Assembly (NCBI RefSeq): GCF_009914755.1
Contig: NC_060940.1
Direction: 5' to 3' (one strand)
Source: the human T2T-CHM13v2.0 reference genome, Homo sapiens
DNA: 64,000 nt
Numbering within the stretch: the first letter of the stretch is position 1; every line of letters begins with the position of its first letter. Below the pieces are notes generated by a model. It was not told where the DNA came from. It saw only the letters and a program-made list of their open reading frames with translations, and searched no databases. Of the stretch, positions 1 through 20,200 are shown in pieces. Position numbers and translations under genes: made by a program.

Positions 1-324
1 GATTGCAATGGAGGCTTAAATCTCCAATTTCGTAATATGACTGAAAAGGCCCAGCATGATCTGGCCCTTCCCACATCTCTATGCCCCAGTGCCTCCCCGC
101 TGCCTGCAGCCACCTGTTGTCCCTTTGGGTCCTCCAATGCTCTGAGCTCCTTTGCACCTTGGGACTTCACGTGTACTTCTCTCCTTCATTTAACAGAACT
201 CCATTTAAATTCTACTTTCTTAGAATCTACTCATTCTCAATTAGCCCCCTCCCTTTATACTCTTAGAGGTTTCTGTATTTTCTCCCCTTCTTGATACCTA
301 TTGAAAGTTATTTCACTTTACTGT

Positions 325-925
325 TTTTTGTTTTTTTTTTTGACTCAGGGTCTTGCTCTGTCACCCACGCTTGAGTGCAGTGGCGCAGTCACAGCTTACT
401 ACAGCCTCGAACTCTGCGACTCCACTGAGCCTTTTGCCTCAGCCTCCCGAGTAGCTGGCACTACAGGATAATTTTTTTTGTATTTTTTTGTGAAGAGAGG
501 GGTCTCGGCCAGGTGCTGTGGCTCACACCTGTAATCCCAGCACTTTGGGAGGCTGAGGCGGGCGGATCATGAGGTCAGGATTCAAGACCAACCTGGCCTA
601 GATGGTGAAACCCCATCTCTACTAAAAATGCAAAAATTAGCTGGGTGTGGTGGCGTGTGCCTGTAATCCCAGCTACTCGGGAGGCTGAGGCAGAGAATTG
701 CTTGAACCCGGGGGGCAGAGGTTGCCATGAGCCGAGATCCACACCACTGCATTCCAGCCTGGACGACAGAGTGAGACTCCAACTCGAAGAAAAAAAAAAG
801 AGAGAGAGAGAGACGGGGGGTCTCACTATGCTGCCCAGGCTGGCCCCAAACTCTTGGGCTCAAGTGATTCTCCCACCTTGGTCACCTCGTGCTGGGATTA
901 CAGGCATGAGCTACCATGCCCAACC
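325..925 (-). mobile_element. AluJ (minus) split by an inserted AluS (plus, ~507-800)
   Basis: Antisense Alu arms at 325-506 and 810-925; sense Alu between them, flanked by a duplication resembling AGAG..GGGGGTCTC. Confidence 0.85.
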
Positions 926-1309
926 CCTACTAAAATGTAAAGTTATATATTTATTTCCTTGATTATCAGTTTATGTGTCTGTGTCATTAGAACATAAGTC
1001 ATGTGGTGGAAGAGATCAGGTCTGCTTGATCATTCTATCTCCAGTGTCCCATATGTAGTTTGCACTATTACTTGTTGAATGAATATGGAGAGTTCTCCAT
1101 TTTATGGATGATTCCAATTATTTCTCACCACACCTCTCGAGTCCCTTGACATAGGTATCGTCACCCCATTTTACAAAAAAGGAAATGGATTGGTGGTGAC
1201 ACAATTTGCCCAAGATCATGTAGCCAGTGCATAGTGGGGTGAATTGCAAATTCAAGTAGAACATGAAAACCTGTGGTTTTCCTTCGTAGCATCTTCTAAA
1301 TACTTGTTT

Positions 1310-1830
<521 letters not shown>

Positions 1831-1908
1831 TCATGTGTCACACTACCATGGGCTGCTGTTGTCATATTCTCTAATCTGGTCTTCAGGTTTCTCTCTGGAG
1901 AGTGGCCA

Positions 1909-2476
1909 TGAGCCAAGGTAGCCACTTTCTAGGAGAGCCCTCAACAGGAAAAGAGTTAGGTTCAGGTGTGAAGGGCAGGTGAGACACAATGAGAAGGTGA
2001 AATCGTGATGCATGAAACAAAAATTGTATTATTTACAGATCCAGAGAGGTCGGAGTTGCCAACAGGAGGCTACAGGAAGTCTGGAGGCCACAAGGAACTC
2101 AACCAATGGGCAGAGAGCAAGAGAGGGAGGGCCTCGGGGAGCAGGACTTTATTAAGGTCCAGGGGCATCATCCCTTAGATTTTCCCAGGGGCCTATGGAT
2201 TGGCTAGTTTAAGGAAAACATGTTTGAGAAGGGGGAAATTTATTTACATGAATCTGGTGTTGACCATTGTGTTTTATCATGATCAGCAGTCATTGGTGTG
2301 TTGGGCTTAGGGTCAGTGGGATGAGGAACAAGCGGGCTATACTGCAAACAGGGACAGGAGGAGAGGAATTTTTAACTAGGCCAAAGGTGATGAGGTACAA
2401 CTGGTTTTCAAACCACCTATGTCAGGCCTAACGGTGGGCGTGGAGGCAGCAAGTGTGTTACACAAATTTACGACAG
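1909..2476 (-). mobile_element. Probable ERV solo LTR, family unresolved
   Basis: TG...CA-bounded block of LTR-like composition; family not confidently recognised. Confidence 0.4.
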
Positions 2477-2496
2477 TCACACACTGTGCTTGGGTC

Positions 2497-2957
2497 TGAG
2501 GATGGTTAAAGAAAAAATTATTGTCACACATGTTGGAATGGTTAGTAAGACTTTGCGCAGGTCTATCGCAACAGGTGTCAAGACTATCATAATCATCTTA
2601 GGAGAGATTAGGCTCAACTTAGAATATAGCACAGACACCTGAGGATTGATCACCAGTGAGAAGACTGAGGGGGATCAATCGAAAGAAAATTACTAAGAGG
2701 AGACATAGAGAATAGGGAGATTCTTACTAGAGACAGGTCAAGGACTTATATACCAAAAGTTGTGGGGGAGGAAATTGAGCAGGTACGGAGGGTGATCAGA
2801 TATCAAGGGTATGGAGGTTCTTGCTAAACTGACATAGTAACATTCAAGCTAAAACTGGGACAGGCAGGCCAAAGACAGCACTTTAGTTTTATCCAAAGTC
2901 AAAGCCTAGTCAAGAAGAGGAGCCTTACTAAAGTTTACCCAAGGAGAGTCTTTGTCA
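2497..2957 (-). mobile_element. MER31/MER67-family ERV1 LTR
   Basis: Reverse complement starts TGACAAAGACTCTCCTTG..AAACTTTAGT.AGGCTCCTC. Confidence 0.7.
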
Positions 2958-4194
2958 GGTACTAGAGTGAACAATGTAGTCAGTTTCTTGAGCCCAGAGT
3001 TAGATAAAGTGACAGTCTAACAGCCTATGATGTCTTGGCAGCTTATTGTGGGCTATGACCCTCCTTTGGGTTTTATTTTCTTGTATCAATAATTGAGCAA
3101 GATGACACAAGGTGGAGGTAGCGGTAGTGGAGTGGGGAAGGTGTGGGAAAAGATGTGGCAACCTGCGTGGCAAGTGAGTTTCAAGACCTGCTAAGCATAA
3201 TTCATTCACCTGGGAGAGAGTGTGAGGCAGCCAGCCCAGGGCTGGGTTTTGGTCTCAGCTCCCCACCTCCCTGGGTATCTGGCCTTTTCTCCTGGACTGT
3301 CCTATCCTGGGTGTGTCTTCTAACCCTACTGTGCCACTGAGATTCACAGTGCCTTGGTTTTGCCTCTCTCTGACAAAGAATCAGCCTTCAAGAGTCGGGG
3401 AACCGGGAAAACAAGTTGCTGCTTGATTATATTGTACCTTTCTCATTCTTGCATTTTGTGTGTGTTCCTGAAAGCCCCACTTCCCAGCCTTATAGGTACA
3501 GTGAGAACACACACAATGTACACACATACTTGCGGGTTCATTCATTCAGACAACATCTACTGAGCATCTTACTGTGTGCTAAGTGCTATCAAGATATAGA
3601 GATGGATGAAACACTTATCCACAAGCTCAGACATCCGTACAGTCACAGTGTGTGTTTGGGCATGTAGATAAGAACTCATGATTGAAGCTTAGATTTGAAA
3701 AGCTTCATGAGAGAGAGAACATAGTAATGACTATCATTTAAGAAACACTATATGTCCAACATTGTTCCAGAATTTCATGCACATTAACAATCTGCAACAA
3801 TCCTGTAAGGTAGATCTGACAATTAAGCTCCTTTACAAGGAGGCTTAAGGAGACTACCTTGTCAAAGACACAAAGCAATGCAGTAGTGAAGCTGGGATTG
3901 AAACTCAGAGCTGGTACACACCACATTGTACAACACACTGTGGAGGTATCATAGCCCCTACTGCAGTATCGTGCAAACTGGTAACTTACAATGGGCATTC
4001 AGAGCTGGGAAGTTTACTTCCACTTGGGGATCAGAGGAACATGAAAACCTATTCAATATGATCACAAAACAGAAAGGGACTGTGGCAGAACTTGGTAGAC
4101 ACTAGGGAAGCTGAACCACTACTAGTAGCAGCTGGGTTCTCAAAAGCTCATATTGTGCTGGAAAGCACTTCTCTTTCTTGCAATGTGATGTGTC

Positions 4195-4556
4195 TCAGAC
4201 CTCACTGTGAACACAGCTCACCTGGGAATCATGGTAAAACTCAGGCTCCAATTCAGCAGGTCTGGTTGGGACCTGGGACTCTGCATGCCTACCAAGCTCC
4301 CAGCTCATGCCAATGCTGTTAATCCGTAGAATACGCTTGGACAAGCAAAGCTCTGGGGCAGCAGTTCTCAAAGTGAGGTATTGAGAACCAGGTAGCAGCA
4401 GCAGCATCACCCAGAAGCATGCTAGAAATGCAAATTCCAAGGCCCCACTCCAGAACAAATGAATCAGGAACTCTAGGGTGGAGCCCAGGAATCTGCACTT
4501 TCACAAATTCTTCAGGTGATGCTGACGCACATTGAAGTTTGAGAACCACTGCTCTA
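4195..4556. mobile_element. MER5-family hAT-Charlie MITEs (MER5A ~4359-4556 plus adjacent fragment)
   Basis: CAGCAGTTCTCAAAGTG...AGAAATGCAAATTC...GTTTGAGAACCACTG. Confidence 0.75.
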
Positions 4557-6575
4557 GACAGCAGTGTATTCTCCTTCTCTGCTCTCCTTCATTTATAATG
4601 TTTTTTTTTTTTCTGTTAGATGCTCTGATTCGCTTCTAAATGAGGGAGGAAGTCCTGATATACTTGCTACCTGCTCGGGAGACCAATGCAAAACTCTTCC
4701 TAAAAAAGCCTCTCTAAACTTCTCAAAGATGGCAGACTCTGCGTAGTTAAGTGGTAAAACCCCCGGCCAGACTCCAGACTCACCTTCATCCAGATTCACC
4801 TTTAGTCTGTGCTATACATGATAGTTAATATGTGACATACATATATGTCTATACACACATTTGCATATGTAGGCTTTGTACCACCTCATAGATTTGTTGT
4901 AAGGCACACACTTATCTACAAGGAACATTTCCAAGATCCAAATGTAACAGCAACAACATAATAGAAATAAAAACGCTGAACACGTATTATTTCAGAGAAA
5001 TAACTCATTCTTTGATTAACATGATCTCGGTGTTTGTTAGCTGGAAGGTTCTAATTTCTCAGTAATAGAGCATTCAAGGCTATTAGCATAATTTTATGAC
5101 CCCTAACTATAATTCAATGAAAATTGAGATGTTTGTTTCCACTGTATCAAATTTGCCTCTGCTGGATACTGGAAATCCATTGACTGAAGTGCTGTACCAG
5201 TTAAGCTAGAATGGGGTAAGCAGTAAATAAATAAACACAAATTTTCAGTGGCTTATTTTTATTACATGCCACGCTCACATTATATGTCCAACATGGTATG
5301 TGTGTATATAATAGCAAGAGTAGGGGAATGGGTGGAGGAGAGCCCTCCTCCAATCACCCAAGACCCAGGCTCACAGAGCTCTAGCATCTTGGGACACAGT
5401 TCCCTCAATGTGTGGCTCCAAGGATACTGTTGCAAGGCAGAAACAGGATACTCCTGCAGTGGTTTTTTCACTGTCTTAGCCATAAGAGGCACACATCACT
5501 TTCACTCACATGTCATTAGCCAGAACAAGTCTCATGACTCTGCCTAGTTGTGAGGGAAGAGGAGTCTCCTATGTGTCCAAGAAGAAAGGGAGAACTAGAA
5601 ATCGGTGAGCAACAGTATTATCTTCACACTCAGCTGAAACATGTTACACTTGAATGCCTATAAGCATAATAAGGTAAAAAGATGAGCAACAATCAGCTCA
5701 AAAAGATCTCTGTAAATCAGCACACGTGACATTGCCATTGAGGGAGCATTTATTATGTACCAAGAACTCACTATCCTATTTCATGTACATAATTTCAACC
5801 GGTGCTGAAACAGCCCTGATGGGGTGGCCCCATTATCTAACCTACCAGTTTAAAACTGCAGGCAAGATCTGAGGCCGGATTTGAATCCAGTTTCAACTGT
5901 CTCTGTAGCACCCGGACTTAATCCACATGTGATACCCCTCAGTGACGATGCCGGCTCCTCCCCTTCAAAACTCTTTGATTACTCATTGCCTTTCTGTGGA
6001 CTTCGTAGTTGTTAAAATCCTATTCTACCAGGGACAAACCACAATCTCTGCAGGCCCTTCTCCAGTGTACTGGACTGGGTCCAGGACTGCAACTAGTGTG
6101 GACTTTGTAAGGTCAGTTCCCAAAAAACGTGATTAGTAAAACACACAGAGGATGCCCCACCCCTCAGAAGTAAGGGCAGGTTTAAGACTTATATGCTGAT
6201 CTACTCTCACTTTCTCTTTTGCCCTACTGAGAGGGGTAAGAACTCTGGTCCTCCCCAGCAGCTACAGGGGCCCATCATCTGTGGACACACTACAAGGAAA
6301 ATACAAGGTAGAAACATTTAACAGGACACAGACATGGAATGAAAAAGAGAGAATTGTTCTTGTTTTCTTCCCTTGGCTACCTGGAAATTCAAAGATAAAT
6401 GTAAATGCTTTGAACATCTTAGCACCTTATCCTTGGCTTCTGGTAAAATTACTGCCTCTGACCCCGCCCCCCCGCCCCCCCCAATTACCACTTATACAGT
6501 TCACTTTCCCCACTTAGCTTCTGCGTTAATATCAGTTCAATCACCTTACACCATTTTTTTAATAGGCAGGATATA

Positions 6576-6704
6576 CAGGCACAACTTATTTCATTGCACT
6601 GCAGTTTATTATCCTTTGCAGATATTGGGTCTTTTAAAAATTGAAGGTTTGTGGCAACCCCACATCAAGCAAGTCTATCAGTGTCATTTTTCCAATACCA
6701 CGTG
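6576..6704. mobile_element. Tigger1 terminal fragment (TcMar DNA transposon)
   Basis: TA + CAGGCAC..TTATTTCATTGCAC...AAATTGAAGGTTTGTGGCAACCC..CAAGCAAGTCTATCAGTGTCATTTTTCCAA resembles the Tigger1 end; truncated at the satellite. Confidence 0.75.
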
Positions 6705-9700
6705 TGATCTTTCTGCTACTATCACAGCGGGTGTACACCTTGTGATATTATGCATGATATCCTCGCGATCTTTCTGCTACTATCACCTTGGGTGTACACC
6801 CAGTAATATTATACATGATATCTTCACGATCTTTCTGCTATCACAGTGGGTGTACACCCTCTGATATTACACATGATATCTTCACGGTCTTTCTGCTACT
6901 ATCACAGTGGGTGTATACCCTGTGATATTATGCATGATATCCTCGAGATTTTCCAGGTGATATCGCAGCGCATGTACCCCATGTGTGTGCACCCTGTGAT
7001 GTTATGTAGGATATCCTCGCGATCGTTTTGCTAATGTCAATCGCAGTCACTTTACATCCTGTGTGTACACCTTGTGATGTTATGCAGGATATCCTTGCGA
7101 TCTTCCCACTAATATCAATCAATTACAGTGCCTGTAAACCCTGGGGTATACCCTGTGATGTTATGCAATATATCCTCGTGATCTTTCCGCTAATATCAAT
7201 CACAGTGGCTGTACACCGTGTGTACACCCTGTGATTTTATGCAAGACATCCTTGCCAACTTTTCGCTGATAACAATCAATCACAGTGGCTGTGCACCCTG
7301 TGTGTACACCCTGTGATGTTACGCAGAATATCCTAGAGATCTTTCTGCTAATATCAATCCATCACAGTGGCTGTACACCCTGTGTGTACACCCTGTGATG
7401 TTACTCATGCTATTCTCGCGATCTTTCCGCTAATAGCAGTCAATCACAGTGGCTGTACATTCTGTGTGTACACCCTGTGATGTTACGCAGGATACCCTCG
7501 CAATCTTTTTACTAATATCTATCAATCACAATGGCTGCACACCCTGTGTGTACACCCTGCGTGTATAATCTGTGATATTATGCATATTTATGCATAGTAT
7601 CCTCACGATCTTTTTGCTAATGTCACAGTAAGTGTACACCTGCGATATTAACTATGGCATCCTGACAACCTTTCTGCTAATATCACAGTGGGTGTACACC
7701 CTGTGTGCACACGCTGCGATATTATTCATGACATCGTTGCGACCTTTCCGCTAATATCACAGTGGGTGTATGCCCTGGGTGCGCACCCTGCAATACTATG
7801 CATGATATCCTCCCGATCTTTCTGCTAATATCACAGGGGCTTTACACCATGTGATATTAGACATGATATTCTCGCGATCTTTCTGCTAATATCACAGTGA
7901 CTGTTACACCCTGCGTTACACCATGTGATCTTATACATGATATCCTCCCGATCTTTCTGCTAATATCACAGTGGCTTTACACCATGTGATATTATACATG
8001 ATATCCTCCCGATCTTTCTGCTAATATCACAGTGGCTTTATACCATGTGATATTATACATGATATCCTCCCGATCTTTCTGCTAATATCACAGTGGCTTT
8101 ACACCATGTGATCTTATACATGATATCCTCCCGATCTTTCTGCTAATATCACAGTGGCTTTACACCATGTGATATTATACATGATATTCTCGCGATCTTT
8201 CTGCTAATATCACAGTGGCTTTACACCATGTGATATTATACATGATATTCTCGCGATCTTTCTGCTAATATCACAGTGGCTTTACACCATGTGATATTAT
8301 ACATGATATCCTCCCGATCTTTCTGCTAATATCACAGTGGCTTTACATCATGTGATATTATACATGATATTCTCGCGATCTTTCTGCTAATATCACAGTG
8401 GCTTTACACCATGTGATATTATACATGTGATATTATCATGTATAATATCATGTATAATATCATGTATAATATCATGTATAATATCCTCCCAATCTTTCTG
8501 CTAACATCACAGTGGCTGTACAGCCTGTGATATTATATACGTGATATCCTCGCGATCTTTCTGCTAATATCACAGGGAATGTACACCCTGTGTTCACATC
8601 CTGCGATATTATGCATGACATTTTCCCTACCTTTCTACTGATATCACAGTAGGTGTACACCCTGTTTGCACACCCTGCGATACTATTCATGACATCCTCG
8701 TGACCTTCCTGCTAATATCACAGTGAGTGTACACCCTATGTGCACACCTTGCGATGCTATGCATGACATTCTCGCGACCTTTCCGCTAACATCACAGTAG
8801 GTGTACACCCTGGATGCACACCTTGCGATACTATGCATGATATCCTCGCGATCTTTCTGCTACTATCACAGTGGGTGTTCACCCTATGATATTATGCATG
8901 ATATCCTGGGGATCTTTCTGTTACTATCATAGCGGGTGTACACCCTGTGTGTATATTCTGTGATATTATGCATGATATTTTTGCTATCTTTCCGCTAATA
9001 TCAGTCACAGTGGGTGTACATCCTGTGTTTACACCCTGTGGTCTTAAGCATGATATACTCCCTATCTTTCTGCTAGTATCACCGTGGGTTTACACCCTGT
9101 GTGGACACCCTGTGATATTATGCATGATATTCTCATGATCTTTCCGCTAATATCCATCACAGTGGGTGTACATTGATATTACGCGTGTACACTCTGTGAT
9201 ATTACACATGATATCCTCACGCTCTTTCTGCTAATATCACAGTGGGTGTACAGCCTGTGAGATTATGAATAATATCCTCGAGATATTTTTGCTACTTTCA
9301 CAGTGGTTGTACACCCTTTGTGTACACCTTGTAAATTTATGCACAATATATTCGAGATACTTCTGCTACTGTGACAGTTGGTGTACACCCTGAGTGTACA
9401 CCTTGTGAGATTATGCGTAATATCCTAGAGATATTTCTGCTACTGTCACAGTGGGTGTACACTCTGGGTGTACACCCTGTTATATTGTGCACAATATCCT
9501 TGAGACATTACTGCTTGTATCACATAGTGGGTGTACACCCTGTGATATTATGCCTAATATCTTGAGGGATTACTGTTAATATCACAGCGTGGGTACACCT
9601 TGTTTGTAATCCCCTCTGATATCATGCCTAATATCTTCTTCGAGAGATTACTGCTAATATTACAGGGGGTGTATCCCCCATGTGTACCTTTCCTGAGATA

Positions 9701-10588
9701 TTATGCCTAACATCTTCTTAGAGAAATCCTACTAGTAGCACAGGGGTGGTACACCCTGTGTGTCCACCCTGTGATATTATGTTTAATATCTTCTTCAAGA
9801 GGTTACTCCCAATATCACAGTGGGCGTACTCACTGTGTGTACACCCTGTGATATTATTCATAATATTTTCGATATTACAGCTAATATTGCAGTGGATGTA
9901 CACCTTGTGTGTAAACACTGTTAAAATATTCATAATATCTTTGATATTGCCACTAAAATCACAGTGGGTGTACACCCTGTGTGCATACTCCGTGATATTA
10001 TTCATAATATTTTCGATATTACAGCTAATATCACAGTGGATGTACACCCTGAGTGTACACACTGTGAAAATATTCATAATATCTTCGATATTGCTGCTAA
10101 TATCGCAGTGGGTGTACACTCTGTGTGTATACTCCGTGATATTATTCATAACATTTTCATATTACCACTAATATCACAGTAGGTGTACACCCTGTGATAT
10201 TGTTCATAATATATTCAATATTACCACTAATATCAGAGTTCGTGTACACCCTGTGATATTATTCATTATACCTTCAATATCACCGCCACCATCACAGTGA
10301 GTGTACCCCCTGTGATAGTATTAATATATTCGACATTACTGCTAATATCACAATGGGTGTATACCCTGTGATGTTATTTATATCTTTTATATTACTGCTA
10401 ATATCACAGTACTGCTATCACACTTGGTGTACATCCTGTGATGTTACTCCTAATATTTTAGATTTTACTGCTGATATCCCAATGGGTGTACACCCTGGTT
10501 GTACATCCACTGTGATATTATTTATAATATCTTTGATATAATGGCTAATATCACAGTGGGTGTACACCCTGTGATATTATTCATAATA
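6705..10588. repeat. SATR1/SATR2-like satellite, domain A (61-76 bp units, core AATATCACAGTGGGTGTACACCCTGTGATATT)
   Basis: Tandem degenerate units seen directly; core resembles the recalled primate SATR1/SATR2 consensus. Confidence 0.85.
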
Positions 10589-10600
10589 ACATGGAAGCCG

Positions 10601-13600
10601 TGTGTAAACATTGGATATTATAAATATCAGAGTGATATTTCATTAATATCACAGTGTGTAAACATTGTGTTAACACAGTATGTTATAAATATGAGAGCAA
10701 TATTTCATTAATATCATGGTTTGTAATCACTGAGTGTAAATACTGGATATGATAAGTATTAGAGTGATATTTCATTAATATAACAGTGTGTAAACAGTGT
10801 GTGCAAACACTGATATTATAAATATCGGAGCAATATTTTATAAATATCACAGTGTGTAAACACTGGATATTTTAAATATGAGGGGGATATTTCATTACTA
10901 TTACAGTGTGTAAACACTTGATGTTATAAATATCAGAGTCATATTTCATTATTATCAACGTGTTTAAACACTGTGTAAACACTGATATTACAAATATCAG
11001 AGTGACATTTCTTTAATATCACAGTGTGTAAACACTGAATAATATAAATATCAGAGCGATATTTCATTAATATCAATAGTGTGTAAACACTGAATATTAT
11101 AAATATCACAGTGATATTTCATTAATATCATAGTGTGTAAACACTGTGTCTAAACACTGGATATGATAAATATTAGAGCAAGATGTCATTAATATCCCAG
11201 TGTGTAAACACTGTGTCTAAACACTGAATATTATAAATATCAGAGTGACATTTCATTAATATTTTAGTGTATAAGCACTGGATGTTATAATTATCAGAGC
11301 GATATTTCATAAACATCACAGTGTGTACACCACTGCCATTATAAATATCATGGCGATATTTTATTACTATCACAGTGTGTAAACACTGGATATTATAAAT
11401 ATCAGAGCCATATTTCATTACTATCACAGTGTGTGAATACTGAATATTATACATCTCAGAGCAATATTTCATTAATATCACAGTGTGTAAACACTGGATA
11501 TTATAAATATCAGAGCCATATTTCATTAATATCACAGTGTGTAAACACCGGATATTATAAATATCAGAGTGATATTTCACTCACTGAATATTATAAACAT
11601 CATCAGAGAGATATTTCATTAATATCACTGTGTGTAAACCCTGAATATTATAAATACCATCAGAGAAATATTTCATTAATATCACAGTGTGTAAACAGTG
11701 GATATTGTAAATATCATCACACTGATATTTCATATATATCACTGTGTGTAAACACTGGATATTACAAGTATCATCAGAGTGATATTTTGTTAATATCATA
11801 GTGTGTCAATATTGGATATTACAAGTATCATCAGAGCAATATTTCATGAATACTACAGTGTGTAAACACTGGATATTACAATTATTATCATCAGAGCGAT
11901 ATTTCATTAATATCACAGCGTGTAAACCCTGGATATTACATGTATCCTCATCAGAGCAATATTCATTAATATCACAGTTTGTAAACCCTGGATACAATAA
12001 ATATCAGAGCGAAATTTCCCTAAAATCACAGTGTGTACATCCTGGATACTATAAATATCAGTGCAAAATTTCCCTAGTATCACAATGTGTAAATCCTGGA
12101 TACTCTAAATATGAGACCGAAAATTCCCTGGTATCACAGTGTGTAAACCCTGGATTTTATAAATATCAGAGCTAAATTTCCCCAGTATCACAGTGTGTAA
12201 ACCCTGGACACTATAAATATCAGAACAAAATTTTCCTAGTATCACAGTGTGTAAACCCTGGATACTATAAATATCAGAACAAAATTTTCCTTGTATCACA
12301 GTGTGTAAGCCCTGGATACTATAAATATCAGAACAAAATTTTCCTAGTATCACAGTGTGTAAACACTTTGTGTAAACACTGGAAATTATATGTATCAGAC
12401 TGATATTTCACTAGTGTCACAGTGTGTAAACCCTGTGTGTAAACTCTGGATATTATAAATATCAGAGCGATATTTCACTAATGTTACAGTGTGTAAACGC
12501 TGTATATTATAAATATCAGGGTGAAATTTCACTAATGTCTCAGTATGTAAATACTGGATATTAGTAATATCAGAGAGAAATTTTACTAATGTCGCAGTGT
12601 ATAAACACTAGATATTACAAATATCAGAGCGAAATTTCCCTTGTATCACAGTGTGTAAAAAGTGGACACTATAAATATCAGACCGAAATTTCCCTAGTAT
12701 TACTGTGTGTAAACACTGGATACTATAAGTATCAGAGCGGTATTTCACTAGTATCACAGCGTGTAAACACTTTGTGTAAACACTGGATATTATACATATC
12801 AGAATGATATTTCACCAGTATTACAGTGTGTAACCACTGGAGATGATAATTATCAGGGTGATATTTCACTAGTATCACAGTGTGTAACCACCGGATATTA
12901 TAAATATTAGAGCGATATTTCTTTAATATCACAGCATGTAAGCCCTGTGTGTAAACACTGGATATTATAAATATCACAGCGATATTTCGCTGATATCACA
13001 GTGTGTAACCACTGGGTATTGTAAATATCACAGTGATGTTTCACCAATATCACAACGTGTTACTAGTGGATATTGGAAATATCACAGCGATGTTTTGCCA
13101 ATATCACAGTGTGTAACCACTGGAAATTGTAAATATCACAGTGATATTTCGCCGATATCACAGTGTGTAACCAGTGTGTAATCACAGGATATTGTAAATA
13201 TCAGAGCAATATTTTGCTGGTATCACAGTGTGTAAACTTGATACTGTAAATATCACAGCAATATTTCACTGATATTACAGTGTGTAAACACTGGATATTG
13301 TAAATATCACAGCGATATTTCACTGATATCACAGTGTATAAACTCTGGATGTTGTCAATATCACAGTGATATTTCACTAATATCAGAGTGTGTAAACACA
13401 GGATATCGTAAATATCACAGCAATATTTCAGTGATGTCACAGTGTGTAAGCACTGTGTGTAAACACTGGATATTATGAATATCACAGCGATATTTCATTA
13501 GTATCACGGTGTGTAAACACTGGATATTATAAATATAACACCGATATTTCCTTAATATCATGATGTGTAAACACTAGATATTATAAATATTGCATCGATA

Positions 13601-14672
13601 TTTCATTAATATCATGGCGTGTAAACACTATGTGTGAACACTGGATATTAGAAATATCACAACATTTCATTAATATCACGGTGTGCAAACACTGTGTGTA
13701 AACAATGGATATTATGAAAATCACAGCGATATTTCATTAATGTCACAGTGTGTAAGCACTGTGTGCAAACACTGGATATTATGAATATCATAGCGATATT
13801 TTATTAATATCGCAGTGTGTAAGCACTGTGTGGAAACACTGGATATTATGAATATCACAGCGATATTTCGTTAATGTCACAGTGCGTAAGCACTGTGTGT
13901 AAATACTGGATATTATGAATATCACAGTGATATTTCATTAATGTAACAGCGTGTAAGCACTGTGTAAACACTGGATATTATGAGTGTCACAGTGATATTT
14001 CATTAATTTCACACGGGATATTATAAAAATCACAACGATATTTAACATCATAGTGTGTAAACACTTTGTGTAAACATCGGGTATTATAAATATCACAGCG
14101 ATGTTTCATCGGTATCACAGTTTGTAAACCTTGGATATTATAAACATCACAGCGATATTTCATTTATATCACGATGTGTAAACACTGGATACTATAAATA
14201 TCACAGCGATGTTTGCTTAATATCACGGTGTGTAAACACTGTATATTACAAATATCACAGCCATATTTTATTAATATCACGGTGTGTACACACTGGATAT
14301 TATAAATATCATATTGATATTTCATTGAGGTCATGGTGTGTAAACACTGGATGTTGTAAATATCTGTGATATTTCATTGATGTTATGGTGCATCAACACT
14401 TGATATTACAAATATCACAGAGACATTTCATTGATATCACAGTGTGGAAACACTGGGTATTATAAATATCACAGCGATATTATATTAATATCACGGTGTG
14501 TAAACATTGTATATTACAAATATCAGCCATATTTTATTAATATCACAGTGTGTAAACACTGGATATTATAAATATCACATCGATATTTCATTGATGTCAC
14601 GGTGTGTAAACACTGGATGTTGTAAATATCACAGCGATATTTCATTAATATTTCATTTCATTAATAATTTCA
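10601..14672. repeat. SATR-related satellite, domain B (54-bp basic unit ATATCACAGTGTGTAAACACTGGATATTATAAATATCAGAGCGATATTTCATTA; 57- and 67-bp variants)
   Basis: Tandem units seen directly; ORFs show 18-aa periodicity (ISLISQCVNTGYYKYQSD); same orientation as domain A (CTGTGTGTAAACACTG vs CTGTGTGTACACCCTG). Confidence 0.85.
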
Positions 14673-14691
14673 CAAACTGCCCCACTGACCT

Positions 14692-14955
14692 AGGGCCAGC
14701 CACAATATTACTTTCATGGGCCCTAGCTACTTTGTTTTTGTGCACCCCTTCTTCCATAAAATAATTTTAAAGTGAATATTTTATGACTGAATTCATAAAA
14801 TGACTATCATCCAAGCTGGATTCATTATTATATATTGCTTTTATTACATACCTTTTCTTCTTCTAATTTAAAAAGAAATTACAATTAAAACATTTTCACA
14901 GGTCCCTAAAATTACTGTGTGTGTCCTGTGCCTGTAAGGGAGAAGTCAGCCCTAC
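14692..14955. mobile_element. MER91-like hAT-Tip100 MITE
   Basis: AGGGCCAGC...GGGCCCTAG...AAGTCAGCCCT ends and AT-rich interior. Confidence 0.55.
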
Positions 14956-15142
14956 ACTGACCCCTGGATTCTCAGCTCGCACCAGGCTCCCTCACACACA
15001 CTGTTCTCCAGCCCCTTTCTGCTGTCTTTGCACAAACTTTGCCCTCTTCCTTGAACACTCTCCCTTGCCTTTTTCCTCATTTATGTCCTCTATCCCGCAC
15101 AGAGCATCAGAATCCCCTTACAGCACAGATCACTGGGCCTGA

Positions 15143-15639
<497 letters not shown>

Positions 15640-15783
15640 TGAGGACCACACTTTGAGAACTACTGCTTTCAAGATGAGCTGCACTTCTATTTCCTCTACC
15701 AAGCCTCTTCTGTCTCCTAATTGGGTCACATTTCTCCTTCACACGCTCTAGAAGGACCAAAGGCCACTGCTTTATCAGTGTGA

Positions 15784-16125
<342 letters not shown>

Positions 16126-16399
16126 CTGTGTGATTAATTTATGTTTCTACCATTTGACTGTGAGCTCCACGTGTCTTTTCGCTAGCTGTGGGATCTGCAC
16201 CCAGTGCATACAGGTGGTCGGTAAACAGGTGCTGACAGCAGTTCCAAAAAGTTGAATGAATCACCTTAACCTTCCAGCAACAGCGAATGCGAGTGTAAAA
16301 TATTATCACCTCACCAACACTGTATTTTTTTTTTTTTAACTCTTCCAGCTCTAAATTCCACAACTCCTCCTATACCTCTTGCTTCCATAGAAGCCCAAG

Positions 16400-17170
16400 G
16401 AGCCCGGCAGAAACTGCTTTGAGCAACCAGGAACACCCGGCCCTAAGTCCCGCCCAGCGCCTCTCCCCACCTCAAGTCCCGCCTCTGGCTATAAGCCCCG
16501 CCCCGCCCCGATCCCGGCCTCCGATCCCAGATCTCGCACCGCCCCGCCCCCTGTCTCCGCCCCAGACACCACCCCGCCTCGTGCTCTAAGCCCCGCCCCT
16601 CTCTCTGGCTTTAGGCCGCTCCCAAGCCCAGAGCTGCTCTGCGCAAGCGCGACCGACCGAGCAGCTCCGAGGAGTCCGCCCGGAAACAAACATTCCCCAG
16701 GGCAATGTCACGACTTGGTCTTCCCGAGGAGCCAGTCAGGTAAAGGCTTTCCGGGCCCTGGCACCCCGAGCTTGGTCAGGCCCGGCCTTGATCGTAGCGG
16801 AGGCCACCGGGGCCTTTTGGCCGGGACTGATTTTGCAACTCCCGCCAGTCCACCTGCGAGCGCCGGATGGGGGAGCACTCGCCTCCAGCAACCCGCAGGG
16901 TCCCCGAACCTTTGCACTGCTCTGGCCAGGAACAGAGCCGGCTTAAGCCAGTATGGTTTACATACACGCTGCTCCCCTTCCCAGCCGGCTTGGCTGTTCT
17001 GCAATCCGCGTCTCCAGAGTTGGACCCCAGGACCCCCGACAGTGGCACAGACCCGCACCAGGCAGCCCCGGATTCAAGTCCCCCGGTGGCTACTTTCAGT
17101 TGTGACCTTGGGTCTGTCAGTTTCGTAAACTCTCTGAGCCTGGAGGTGACCCTGTGATCACTTGCCGGGC
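16400..17170 (+). promoter_or_regulatory. NUDT7: NUDT7 CpG-island promoter with GC boxes, NRF1-like and ETS-like sites
   Basis: High GC/CpG; repeated CCCGCC(C) Sp/KLF boxes 16448-16598; GCGCAAGCGC at 16641-16650; CCGGAA at ~16680; spans exon 1. Confidence 0.88.
16705..16739 (+). CDS. NUDT7: NUDT7 coding exon 1 (MSRLGLPEEPV-R)
   Basis: ATG in ggcaATGt inside a CpG island; 35 nt then donor AG|GTAAAG; joins exon 2 in frame to give [26 protein letters not shown], which I recognise as the NUDT7 N-terminus. Confidence 0.96.
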
Positions 17171-17714
17171 TGTTGTGAGGATAAAATGAGAAACGTCAAA
17201 ATTGAGACCATGCTCAGAACGGGGTGGCTGCTACTGCTGTTGATACCTTGGTGATTATTCCAGCGGCCAGCCCCTAAAGTGGACAGATAACGTTTTTGCA
17301 GCCTTTTACTTTGGCTGGTTTGTCTGGTCAGTTCTGTGGTTTCCGGGTGGTTAAAAGCCACCAGCCCACAGTTTCCTTTTCTGGAGGCTGGCCTGCGTGC
17401 ATCCAGATGCACTGTGCAATCCCTGTGCCAGCATTCACTGATTTTTTTCAGGCCATTTGGTCTTTGAAATACACTGCCGTTACCCAACCACATCTTGTGA
17501 GCACCCTGCCACCTAGAAAGAGGCAAAAAATAGCAAATACCTCCTGCAAACAACTGCTTATCTAATGATGGGGAGATTTATGACAGTGGTTACCATTCCC
17601 TGAGCACCAGCTGTGTGCCAGCCACAGTATATGAACTGCATCATTTAATCTTCTTAAATATCCTCAAGCCTGACACAAATGAAGATGAAACTCAGAGAAG
17701 TCATTTGTATACAC

Positions 17715-18012
17715 TTTTTTTTTTTTTTTTTGAGACAGAGTCTCACTCTGCCGCCCTGGCTACAGTGCAGTAGGCAATCTCGGCTCACTGCAGCCTCTGC
17801 CTCCTGGGTTCAAGCGATTCTCCTGCCTCAACCTTCTGAGTAGCTGGGATTACAGGCATGTGCCACGATGCCCGGCTAATTTTTGTATGTTTAGTAGAGG
17901 TGGGGTTTTACCATGTTGGCCAGGCTGGTCTCGAACTCCTGACTTCAAGTGATTCACCTTCCTCAGTCTCCCAAAGTGCCGGGATTACAGGCATGAGCCA
18001 CTGTACCAGGCC
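17715..18012 (-). mobile_element. AluS (intron 1)
   Basis: Antisense Alu with poly-T. Confidence 0.9.
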
Positions 18013-18107
18013 TCCTATATACATTTGAAGCCAATTCTGGGTATCTTAAATAGCTGATTCTGCCCACTATGCAAAGCTGCCTTCCCACAGAAAAAGTAAA
18101 ATCAACT

Positions 18108-18843
<736 letters not shown>

Positions 18844-18944
18844 AAACTAGCAGTAGAACACACCTGTCAAAAGGACCAAAACAAGTCCACATAGGAAGGG
18901 CACCATTTGCGGTTTTAAATCCAAATGCTTGCATATTATTGGGA

Positions 18945-19135
18945 AATTGTTCTCAGAATGTGTTCCCCTGTCCACAGCGTCAGTAACGCTGTCATGAGGG
19001 AGTTTGATACAAATGCTAATTCTCAGGCCCTACACCAGAGTTACTGAGTCACAGTCTGGGACTGAACCTCGCAGTCTATGTGACAGCCAGCGCTCCAGGT
19101 GATTCTGTTGCTGCTAAAGCTTGGGAACCACTATT
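18945..19135. mobile_element. MER5A
   Basis: TTCTCA..ATGTG...AAATGC.AATTCTCAGGCCC...TTGGGAACCACT. Confidence 0.65.
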
Positions 19136-19522
19136 ATAAGCAGTTGAAGACATAAGAGTTTGAGAACATAAGGGCCAGCTTAACAGAAGGTAGTCTTCTA
19201 ACCTTCTAACCTTAACAATGACTTTTTCATCAAACCTGTCTTCTCTGAATATAATTATGGGTTTCAAAATTCAACTGTTGCATTATTGAAAAAACATTTT
19301 ACCATACTTTATGTTTCAAAGAGAACCTGTGTACTAAACTGTGTGCTTAGAAGGTTTTTTTGTCATTTTCATCTTGCGAACAACCACGCAATTTAGATAG
19401 TATCATTTCTGTCGTGTTATTGAAAAATACACAGAGAGTCAGAAATGGCAAACTCCTAAATACACAACAAAGCAGAAACAGAGGCAGGACTATAAGCTTT
19501 TTACCATAACTCTGCTTGCTAA

Positions 19523-19732
<210 letters not shown>

Positions 19733-19929
19733 TAAACCTCAGGACATCAGAAGACCTCACGACATTTTGTCACTTGCACACACTTTGATGCCAAAATTCT
19801 CAAAAGGGCTTTCAAAATTGTGATGTCAGAGGCATACAACCACAAGCCACAGGATAACATGGTGTTTCTTGGAGAAGGTTTAACAAGAAAATGAAGGAAT
19901 TTAGCTAGCAAGCAGTTTAAAACGCTTTC

Positions 19930-20200
19930 ACACTAGGGTTACCTAACCTTGGTGCTATTGGCATTTGGGGCTGAATAATTCTTTGGTGTGGAGGCTGTCC
20001 TGTATAATGTGGTGTGTTTACCATCATCCTTGGCCTCTACCCACCAGATGCCAGTAGCACACACAAACACAAGCTCACACACACCTTTGTCCCTTTGTCC
20101 AGTATGCCAGTAGCACACACACCACAAATGTCTTCAGAATTGCCTACTATCCTGGCAGGATTGGGGGTGCCAAATTGCCCCCCACCAAGGGCCACTGTTT
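19930..20200. mobile_element. MER20 (hAT-Charlie) with small internal duplication ATGCCAGTAGCACACAC
   Basis: AACCTTGG..CTATTG.CATTTGGGGC.G.ATAATTCTTTG...CTCTACCCAC.AGATGCCAGTAGCAC. Confidence 0.75.

What the first reader, a model, noticed from the sequence alone, without database searches (positions are those of the whole stretch)
6705..14672. 8-kb palindromic satellite just upstream of NUDT7 that changes stepwise along its length
Seen: one continuous array whose unit changes in ordered blocks. The linker reads GATATTATGCATGATATCCTCGCGATCTTTCTGCTAATATC (6.7-9.2 kb), then a GAGATT..TAATATCCTAGAGATATTT type (9.25-9.55 kb), a GCCTAATATCTTCTT type (9.55-9.8 kb) and a TTCATAATAT..TCGATATTAC type (9.8-10.6 kb). 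After that come 54-bp GTAAACA units with local 57-bp, AAATTTCCC and GTAACCAC sub-blocks. Neighbouring units share variants and distant ones do not, yet the scaffold AATATC-hairpin-GATATT-x-AATATC-x-GATATT persists throughout. Known: this resembles the poorly characterised primate SATR1/SATR2 satellites. Inference: the array is a serial record of local amplification in which fold-back structure rather than sequence is retained. It may act as a structural or cis-regulatory element ~2 kb from the NUDT7 promoter. It is the best candidate for an undescribed system here.
Basis: partly seen in the sequence, partly recalled or inferred. Interest (0 to 1): 0.8.

Follow-up and report, generated by a model that had tools for sequence, protein, structure and literature searches.

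The report
SATR-family satellite array upstream of NUDT7
The 8-kb repeat block 2 kb upstream of NUDT7 is one copy of a known primate satellite family (SATR1-like) found at dozens of places in the genome; its palindromic units are decaying about as fast as chance predicts, and nothing links it to NUDT7 regulation.

Summary
Window 6705-14672 is one continuous tandem array. Units of 61/74/82 and 59/72 bp (6.7-10.6 kb, "A") are followed by homologous 54/67-bp units (10.6-14.67 kb, "B"). Unit identity falls with distance (adjacent 0.82, far 0.66; Spearman 0.58; 0 of 1000 permutations reach it).

It is not an undescribed system. A-type sequence matches 226 places on 14 chromosomes of the same genome. 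At three sampled relatives it adjoins GC-rich 75/76-mers that carry the published SATR1 consensus primers.

The biggest step, A to B, recurs at 5 of 12 sampled loci. 40 of 114 units match another locus at least as well as their own array. So only some blocks are local bursts (6.7-9.24 kb, 11.96-12.36 kb).

The fold-back design is real: natural units fold better than shuffles. Within this array it decays about as neutral simulation predicts, and 47 B-type palindromes show no covariation.

Across subfamilies, the four alternating AATATC/GATATT hexamers stay 92% identical while the spacers are 42% identical. That family-level regularity is unexplained.

No evidence ties the array to NUDT7. Whether RepeatMasker would label the B half SATR2 could not be tested.

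The parts
6705..14672 (+). Whole tandem array: about 120 quasi-palindromic units of the SATR1-like satellite family.
   Evidence: TRF. Anchor-based cutting into 122 intervals. Identity against distance.
6705..10590 (+). A-type half: units of 61 bp, 74 bp (61 plus a 13-bp duplication of the palindrome core), 82 bp, and 59/72 bp. GC 0.35-0.44.
   Evidence: 50 units used, mean pairwise identity 0.757. It matches A-type arrays at other loci at 66-79%.
7793..8427 (+). Youngest local burst: 10.2 copies of a 61-mer at 91% matches. The inner palindrome core has changed (GGGTGTACACCC to GGCTTTACACCA).
   Evidence: All 12 units at 7600-8500 have their best match inside the array.
8410..8485 (.). A 12-bp micro-array (6.1 copies) whose unit is the reverse complement of the GATATT-linker segment of the neighbouring 61-mers. 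It looks like a small fold-back inversion and expansion.
   Evidence: consensus CATGTATAATAT. Read directly.
9237..10590 (+). Three short sub-blocks: the GAGATT type, the GCCTAATATCTTCTT type, and the 72/59-bp TTCATAATAT type. These carry family-wide variants rather than locus-specific ones.
   Evidence: the best match is local for 0 of 7 and 6 of 11 units, and 10 of 11 units at 9800-10560 have their best outside match at chr8:9.94 Mb. The SATR1_L primer hits four sites at 9537-10585 with 2-3 mismatches.
10595..14672 (+). B-type half: 54-bp units and 67-bp units (54 plus a 13-bp core duplication). GC 0.28-0.34. Local sub-blocks are 57-60 bp at 11625-11972, AAATTTCCC at 11972-12350, GTAACCAC at 12821-13160, and 67-mers at 13564-14013.
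   Evidence: 64 units used, mean identity 0.782. It matches only 17 candidate places in the genome.
11972..12754 (+). Sub-block in which the outer hexamer pair changed on both arms (AATATC..GATATT to AGTATC..GATACT). This is the only recurrent compensatory change in the array.
   Evidence: pair 2-28 is A-T in 23 sequences and G-C in 6. Alignment. One natural unit folds with z = -1.44.
6571..6704 (+). Left flank: the terminal 134 bp of a high-copy dispersed repeat, cut off at the array boundary. From recall it looks like a Tigger-type DNA transposon end.
   Evidence: 1877 candidates, 40 scored, 79-89% identity; homology stops at 6704-6716, and the family's usual continuation is absent from window 1-20000.
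14698..14933 (.). Right flank: a copy of a different, older dispersed repeat starting about 25 bp after the array. It is not found next to other arrays of the family.
   Evidence: 65 candidates, 67-81% identity..

Best explanation
This is an ordinary interstitial copy of the primate SATR satellite family. The A half is SATR1-like. The B half is a shorter, AT-richer relative that often adjoins SATR1-like arrays.

The family unit is a fixed frame: four alternating hexamers (AATATC / GATATT), one 29-36-nt palindrome and three variable spacers.

The A-next-to-B layout was probably inherited from an older composite array, not built at this locus. This step is inferred.

Since then the locus has changed by two processes. 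One is ordinary point-mutation decay. The other is a few local tandem amplifications through unequal exchange or replication slippage (7.8-8.4 kb, 11.97-12.35 kb, 13.56-14.0 kb). These make neighbours alike.

The hairpin-prone units plausibly promote slippage and small inversions; this is also inferred. The array most likely has no sequence-specific function for NUDT7. If it is silenced like other SATR arrays, it would sit as methylated repeat chromatin.
For: Family membership:
- The A-type query matches 226 places on 14 chromosomes at 65-75% identity.
- The B-type query matches 87 places from 17 candidates.
- The published SATR1_L primer (PMC3606032, supplementary file 3) occurs exactly in 4 of 54 fetched loci. 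Two of these overlap, so that is three places. All hits lie in GC-rich 75/76-mer arrays that adjoin A-type arrays.
- SATR1_R matches 8 times with 2 mismatches on the opposite strand in L051.
- In the window, SATR1_L matches 4 sites with 2-3 mismatches, all inside the array, against 0.02 expected by chance.

Shared architecture:
- A adjoins B at 5 of 12 other loci. G adjoins A at 5 of 12. G never abuts B.

Local amplification:
- Identity falls with distance.
- 74 of 114 units have their best match inside the array.

Neutral decay of structure:
- For 12 A-type 61-mers, mean folding energy is -7.28 kcal/mol against -7.20 for simulants carrying the same number of random substitutions (p = 0.58).
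- Covariation on 47 B-type palindromes: 83.1% of cells paired against 83.3% shuffled (322 of 500 shuffles reach it). Double changes number 8 against 6.5 (154 of 500).
- Column conservation, split by base class, gives p = 0.15, 0.30, 0.13 and 0.043.

Literature (passages read):
- Interstitial SATR1-SATR2 mixed arrays, hypermethylated, in macaque (10.1101/2025.08.04.668424).
- SATR1/SATR2 as parts of the Xiao duplicon (PMC5088589; PMC2700803).
Against: - No RepeatMasker or Dfam run was possible, so the names SATR1 and SATR2 for the two halves rest on proxies.
- SATR1_R has no match within 3 mismatches in the window.
- The A|B junction sequence (about 10588-10600) is not shared with any of the 12 sampled loci. 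Tiles are not collinear within zones. So inheritance of the composite is inferred from recurrence, not shown by a shared breakpoint.
- The 12 loci were picked by me from the hits, favouring places hit by both queries. The adjacency counts are therefore not an unbiased frequency.
- B-type 54-mers (n = 37) fold slightly better than neutral simulants (-5.25 against -4.42 kcal/mol, p = 0.016, units not independent).
- Between subfamilies the hexamers are far more conserved than the spacers. Pure neutrality does not predict this.
- No orthologous primate locus, human haplotype, methylation data or expression data could be examined.
Confidence: 0.8

Rival explanations
1. The conserved alternating AATATC/GATATT hexamers are binding sites for a sequence-specific protein, such as a KRAB zinc-finger or another repeat-binding factor. 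On this reading, SATR arrays, including this one, nucleate repressive chromatin that could spread towards the NUDT7 promoter.
For: - Between 9 subfamily consensuses the hexamers are 92.0% identical (795 of 864 positions). The palindrome interior is 70.6% identical and the spacers 42.2%.
- 0 of 24 hexamer columns vary among the G, A, B and C types, while all three spacers differ in length and sequence.
- Passages read: ZNF141 ChIP signal is enriched on SATR1 with its motif present (10.1101/2023.02.27.530095). ZBTB24 ChIP-seq reads map to SATR1 and SATR2 (10.1101/2023.08.31.555516). SATR cores are 74-82% methylated in macaque.
Against: - Inside this array the hexamer columns are not clearly more conserved than unpaired columns once A/T and G/C columns are compared separately.
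- The main local 61-mer block has degenerate second and third hexamers.
- No binding motif was compared with the hexamers.
- My parse of the consensuses requires hexamer-like words, which bounds their identity from below.
Confidence: 0.12
2. The array is a structural or cis-regulatory element for NUDT7. For example, it could be a cruciform-forming insulator, or a length-polymorphic repeat that tunes promoter activity.
For: - It lies 1964 bp from exon 1 (hub table).
- Natural units fold as DNA hairpins well beyond shuffles: z = -3.2, -5.6, -1.4 and -5.1 for four units. Means are -7.28 against -3.37 kcal/mol for A-type and -5.25 against -2.86 for B-type.
Against: - The same family sits at dozens of unrelated loci.
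- Structure in this array decays about as neutral simulation predicts.
- The hub's RefSeq table lists an enhancer and a silencer only at 16474-16768, none in the array.
- Full-text searches for NUDT7 with 'tandem repeat' (7 papers) and with 'VNTR' (1 paper) listed nothing about this array by title or abstract.
Confidence: 0.05
3. The array arose in situ from the dispersed repeat whose 134-bp end forms its left flank. On this reading it is a transposon-derived satellite.
For: The array starts exactly where the flank element is cut off, at 6704-6716.
Against: - The usual continuation of that repeat family, read in 11 copies, has no similarity to any unit type at E<=0.1. The only hits are 12-22-nt matches at E 0.2-0.8.
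- None of the 12 other arrays sampled has this flank.
- None of the 40 scored copies of the flank family lies at a SATR locus.
Confidence: 0.02

Closest known systems
SATR1 satellite (Repbase/Dfam; used as a gibbon centromere FISH probe in PMC3606032; subtelomeric and interstitial arrays in macaque, 10.1101/2025.08.04.668424)
   Same: - The unit frame is the same: four alternating hexamers, a GTGTACAC-centred palindrome and three spacers.
- The window's A half is 65-79% identical to arrays that are contiguous with 75/76-mers carrying the published SATR1 primers.
- The distribution is dispersed and interstitial.
   Different: - The window lacks the GC-rich 75/76-mer type.
- Its main units are a locus-specific 61/74-bp derivative in which two hexamers are degenerate (GATATC, GATCTT).
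- SATR1_R does not match within 3 mismatches.
SATR1-SATR2 mixed interstitial arrays (macaque preprint) and the SATR-HERVE-SATR frame of the Xiao duplicon (PMC2700803, PMC5088589)
   Same: Two related unit types lie side by side in one array. The same pairing recurs at several loci.
   Different: - I could not establish that the 54-bp B type is what RepeatMasker calls SATR2.
- The window's flanks are not shared with other loci, so there is no sign of a surrounding segmental duplication.
Layered satellite arrays with young cores and older diverged flanks (recalled as a general picture of alpha-satellite arrays; not checked here)
   Same: Neighbouring units are more alike than distant ones, and discrete blocks differ in age.
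   Different: - The scale is 8 kb and there is no higher-order repeat.
- The blocks include subtypes shared with other loci rather than one symmetric age gradient.

Membership tests
SATR1 satellite | Sequence assigned to the SATR1 consensus by RepeatMasker/Dfam | not testable with these tools
   No Dfam or Repbase library is on hand. The only consensus-derived sequences available were the two PCR primers in PMC3606032, supplementary file 3.
SATR1 satellite | Carries the published SATR1 consensus primer sites | tested here: inconclusive
   SATR1_L matches 4 sites with 2-3 mismatches, all at 9537-10585, against 0.02 expected. SATR1_R has 0 matches within 3 mismatches.
SATR1 satellite | Homologous to arrays that do carry the consensus primers | tested here: met
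   Window A tiles match chr11:15.08 Mb, chr5:136.32 Mb and chr7:100.82 Mb at 67-79%. At those places A-type arrays adjoin 75/76-mers. SATR1_L is exact in those 75/76-mer arrays. SATR1_R matches 8 times with 2 mismatches on the opposite strand in L051 only, which is chr11:15.08 Mb.
SATR1 satellite | Dispersed at many interstitial loci | tested here: met
   226 matches, of which 150 are listed, on 14 chromosomes. The count is a lower bound by the tool's own statement.
SATR2 satellite | Sequence assigned to the SATR2 consensus | not testable with these tools
   No SATR2 consensus or primer was available. The B type adjoins A-type arrays at 5 of 12 sampled loci. This fits the 'SATR1-SATR2 mixed arrays' of the macaque preprint but does not prove the name.
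Hairpin RNA or miRNA gene (one miRNA, mir-3683, is reported as SATR1-derived in PMC3059204) | Match to a curated RNA family at its gathering score | tested here: not met
   Rfam scan of 6400-15000 gave 9 matches at E<=1, all far below gathering scores. The best was 32.3 bits against a threshold of 100.
Cruciform-prone inverted-repeat DNA | Inverted arms with a short loop that fold better than composition-matched shuffles | tested here: met
   Unit consensuses give stems of 6+6 to 14 bp, at -6.5 to -12.2 kcal/mol. Extrusion in vivo was not tested.
Cis-regulatory element of NUDT7 | Chromatin marks, reporter activity, or an expression effect of deletion | not testable with these tools
   The hub's RefSeq table lists functional elements only at 16474-16768.

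The most novel reading that the evidence does not exclude
Across all SATR subfamilies sampled (76-, 63-, 61-, 59-, 57-, 54- and 52-bp units), the four alternating AATATC/GATATT hexamers and a central palindrome persist. Meanwhile the spacers turn over in length and sequence. At least one stem pair has switched compensatorily: C-G in the 54-mers becomes T-A in the 52-mers.

Inside single arrays, however, the same positions drift freely.

The boldest reading is selection at the level of amplification. Only units with an intact hexamer and palindrome frame get copied into new blocks or new loci. That could be because the frame drives hairpin-mediated slippage or template switching, or because it binds a protein. 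The NUDT7 array would then be a readable record of that process, not a regulator.
Probability: 0.15. Interest if true: 0.5.

Novelty: already known. Interest (0 to 1): 0.2.

Why it matters
Mainly this is a clean-up.

Two by-products may interest people who study satellites:
- Subfamilies adjoin in a regular order across loci: GC-rich 76-mers next to 63-mers next to 54/52-mers.
- The hexamer frame is conserved between subfamilies but not within arrays.

Both could be checked quickly on telomere-to-telomere (T2T) primate genomes.

Tried and rejected
- Rfam scan of the array found nothing near any gathering score.
- In-situ origin from the left-flank repeat: its usual continuation has no similarity to the units.
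- Shared A|B breakpoint with other loci: no alignment spans window positions about 10588-10600.
- Fine-scale collinearity with other loci: 39 tiles against 12 loci sort by zone (A or B) but not in order within zones.
- Shared flanks: the window's flanks match no other array's flanks. Apart from array sequence at the edges, only chr16:10.73 Mb and chr5:136.32 Mb share a long flank (663 bp, 88.5%).
- A first identity measure that ignored gaps gave a weak trend (Spearman 0.10). I replaced it with one that counts gap events.
- A first MAFFT alignment of A units misplaced the 13-bp duplication. I redid it after removing positions 10-22 of long units.
- Literature: NUDT7 with 'tandem repeat' (7 papers) and NUDT7 with 'VNTR' (1 paper) listed nothing on this array by title or abstract. 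SATR1 with 'palindrom' gave 4 papers, and in the only one I read for it (the macaque preprint) the passages do not describe the unit's palindromes.
Full report
**What is there**

Window 6705-14672 is one uninterrupted tandem array. Tandem Repeats Finder reports these periods:
- 61 bp at 6706-6944, and at 7793-8427 (10.2 copies, 91% matches)
- 82 bp at 6973-7559
- 74 bp at 8542-8885
- 72 and 59 bp at 9732-10410
- 54 bp with 67-bp variants at 10799-14651

GC content falls from 0.41-0.44 to 0.28-0.34 at about 10.5 kb. The 74- and 67-bp units are the 61- and 54-bp units plus a 13-bp duplication of the palindrome core.

**Position and similarity**

I cut the array at a 17-nt anchor into 122 intervals. 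114 intervals of 50-85 bp were used and 8 were dropped (7 irregular, 1 empty end marker).

With gap events counted, identity falls from 0.822 between neighbours to 0.664 for units more than 80 apart. Spearman is 0.576, and 0 of 1000 permutations reach it. Inside the A half (50 units) it is 0.339. Inside the B half (64 units) it is 0.141. Each is 0 of 1000. Identity between the halves is 0.667.

**Unit design**

Every block consensus reads AATATC, then a palindrome, then GATATT, spacer 1, AATATC, spacer 2, GATATT, spacer 3. The palindrome with its two hexamers is 32 nt in A units (9+4 bp stems, -8.4 kcal/mol as DNA). It is 29 nt in B units (6+6 bp, -7.9).

Four natural units fold with z-scores of -3.2, -5.6, -1.4 and -5.1 against dinucleotide shuffles. 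So 'palindromic' is correct.

**It is a dispersed, named family**

A 501-bp A-type query finds 226 matches in the window's own genome, on 14 chromosomes, at 65-75% identity outside this locus. A B-type query finds 87 matches from only 17 candidates.

I fetched 12 of these places. I chose them myself, favouring places hit by both queries, so counts over them are not an unbiased sample. TRF on them shows the same unit frame in further sizes:
- GC-rich 75/76-mers (G)
- 63/76-mers (A)
- 54/57/67-mers (B)
- 50-55-mers with a GTGTTAACAC core (C)

The published SATR1 forward primer (PMC3606032, supplementary file 3) occurs exactly in 4 of the 54 loci held. Two of these overlap, so that is three places. 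All hits are inside G arrays. The reverse primer matches 8 times with 2 mismatches on the opposite strand in one of them. G is therefore the canonical SATR1 type.

In the window the forward primer matches four sites with 2-3 mismatches, all at 9537-10585, against 0.02 expected. The reverse primer does not match within 3 mismatches.

I could not run RepeatMasker. The filing as SATR1-like therefore rests on these proxies, and the label SATR2 for the B half is untested.

Papers, read as passages only:
- SATR1/SATR1v/SATR2 mixed arrays, interstitial SATR1-SATR2 arrays and their hypermethylation in macaque (10.1101/2025.08.04.668424)
- SATR1 and SATR2 as the frame of the Xiao duplicon (PMC5088589; PMC2700803)
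- SATR1 variants annotated in T2T-CHM13 (10.1101/2021.07.12.451456)

**Is the stepwise series a local record?**

Only in part.

A 150-bp sliding classification against five type consensuses shows:
- A adjoining B at 5 of the 12 other loci (chr8:94.78 Mb, chr1:223.73 Mb, chr7:100.82 Mb, chr5:136.28 Mb, chr8:29.6 Mb)
- A adjoining C at 4
- G adjoining A at 5
- G abutting B at none

Relative orientation varies, and head-to-head A inversions occur at several loci. The largest step in the window is thus a recurrent family feature.

On the other hand, no alignment from any of the 12 loci spans the window's A|B junction. Tiles are not collinear within zones. So common descent of the composite is inferred, not shown.

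Best non-self matches, unit by unit: 74 of 114 are inside the window's array. By zone:
- 6700-9240: 32 of 32 local
- 9240-9800: 0 of 7 local
- 9800-10560: 6 of 11 local, with the outside best match at chr8:9.94 Mb for 10 of the 11
- 10560-11960: 5 of 22 local
- 11960-12360: 8 of 8 local
- 12360-14600: 23 of 34 local

The array is therefore a mosaic. Family-wide subtypes are mixed with a few local bursts.

**Is fold-back structure retained beyond neutrality?**

Inside this array, essentially not.

Column conservation:
- A units: non-consensus fraction 0.138 (hexamers) and 0.139 (palindrome stems), against 0.207 (unpaired). Mann-Whitney p = 0.069, or 0.21 without CpG columns.
- B units: 0.111 and 0.116, against 0.159 (p = 0.060).
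- Split into A/T and G/C columns, p = 0.15, 0.30, 0.13 and 0.043.

Folding energy:
- The 12 A units of exactly 61 nt average -7.28 kcal/mol. Shuffles average -3.37. Simulants carrying the same number of random substitutions on the consensus average -7.20 (p = 0.58).
- The 37 B units of exactly 54 nt average -5.25, against -2.86 and -4.42 (p = 0.016). Units are not independent.

Pair counting on 47 B palindromes (alignment A1):
- 83.1% of cells are paired, against 83.3% after shuffling the 3' partners (322 of 500 shuffles reach it).
- 8 cells show a change on both sides, against 6.5 (154 of 500).
- The only recurrent double change is A-T to G-C at the second hexamer pair, in 6 sequences of the 12.0-12.7 kb block. 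This is probably one inherited event.

**A family-level regularity that neutrality does not predict**

I built 19 block consensuses from natural units (3 to 45 units each). All parse into the same frame.

Between 9 distinct types:
- hexamers are 92.0% identical (795 of 864)
- the palindrome interior is 70.6% identical (529 of 749)
- spacers are 42.2% identical (304 of 720)

Among the G, A, B and C consensuses, 0 of 24 hexamer columns vary. All three spacers differ in length and sequence. Between B and C the outermost inner-stem pair is C-G against T-A.

Caveats: the parse itself demands hexamer-like words, the types are few, and they are related by descent. I read this as a lead. It suggests that units with an intact frame are the ones that get amplified, or that a protein reads the hexamers. 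It is not a demonstrated constraint.

**Flanks**

The left flank, 6571-6704, is the end of a high-copy dispersed repeat (1877 candidates). From recall it is Tigger-like. It is cut off at the array boundary. Its usual continuation is absent from window 1-20000 and unlike any unit type.

The right flank, 14698-14933, belongs to another, older repeat family (65 candidates).

Neither flank occurs beside the other arrays sampled. How the array reached 16q23 is open.

**NUDT7**

The array ends 1964 bp before exon 1 (hub table). The hub's RefSeq table places an enhancer and a silencer at 16474-16768 and nothing inside the array. Two full-text searches found no paper on a repeat at NUDT7. No chromatin, haplotype or expression data were available, so a regulatory effect is neither shown nor excluded. 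The family's dispersal and the neutral decay here make a locus-specific role unlikely.

**Verdict**

This is a real array and an accurate description. The reading as a novel, structure-preserving, NUDT7-linked system is not supported. It is a known kind of satellite and of low interest, with one family-level regularity worth a quick check on complete primate genomes.

Noticed in passing
window 8410-8485: Six copies of a 12-mer (CATGTATAATAT) interrupt the youngest 61-mer block. The 12-mer is the reverse complement of the GATATT-linker segment of the adjoining units. It looks like a small fold-back (template-switch) inversion followed by expansion.
   Followed up: partly
window 6571-6704: The terminal 134 bp of a very common dispersed repeat (1877 candidates) is preceded by TA and cut off exactly at the satellite boundary. 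From recall it resembles a Tigger-type transposon end.
   Followed up: partly
loci L035-L054 (chr5:136.32 Mb, chr7:100.82 Mb, chr16:10.73 Mb, chr11:15.08 Mb, chr10:17.3 Mb and others): Subfamilies adjoin in a regular order: GC-rich 76-mers next to 63-mers next to 54- or 52-mers. The 76-mers never directly abut the 54-mers in the 12 loci sampled. Unit length and GC content fall together along this series.
   Followed up: partly
L052 (chr8:9.94 Mb), L053 (chr8:29.6 Mb), L039-L040 (chr1:223.73 Mb), L037 (chr5:136.32 Mb): A-type arrays switch strand head-to-head within a locus at several places. This would be expected if the quasi-palindromic units favour inversions.
   Followed up: no
L043 (chr16:10.73 Mb, left flank) and L038 (chr5:136.33 Mb, right flank): The sequence just outside the 52-mer end of these two arrays is shared over 663 bp at 88.5% identity. 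These two loci are therefore duplicates of each other, flanks included, unlike the window's locus.
   Followed up: no
window 15190-15314: A pyrimidine-rich microsatellite stretch, (CTTTT)n followed by (GTT)n, lies between the array and the NUDT7 promoter.
   Followed up: no
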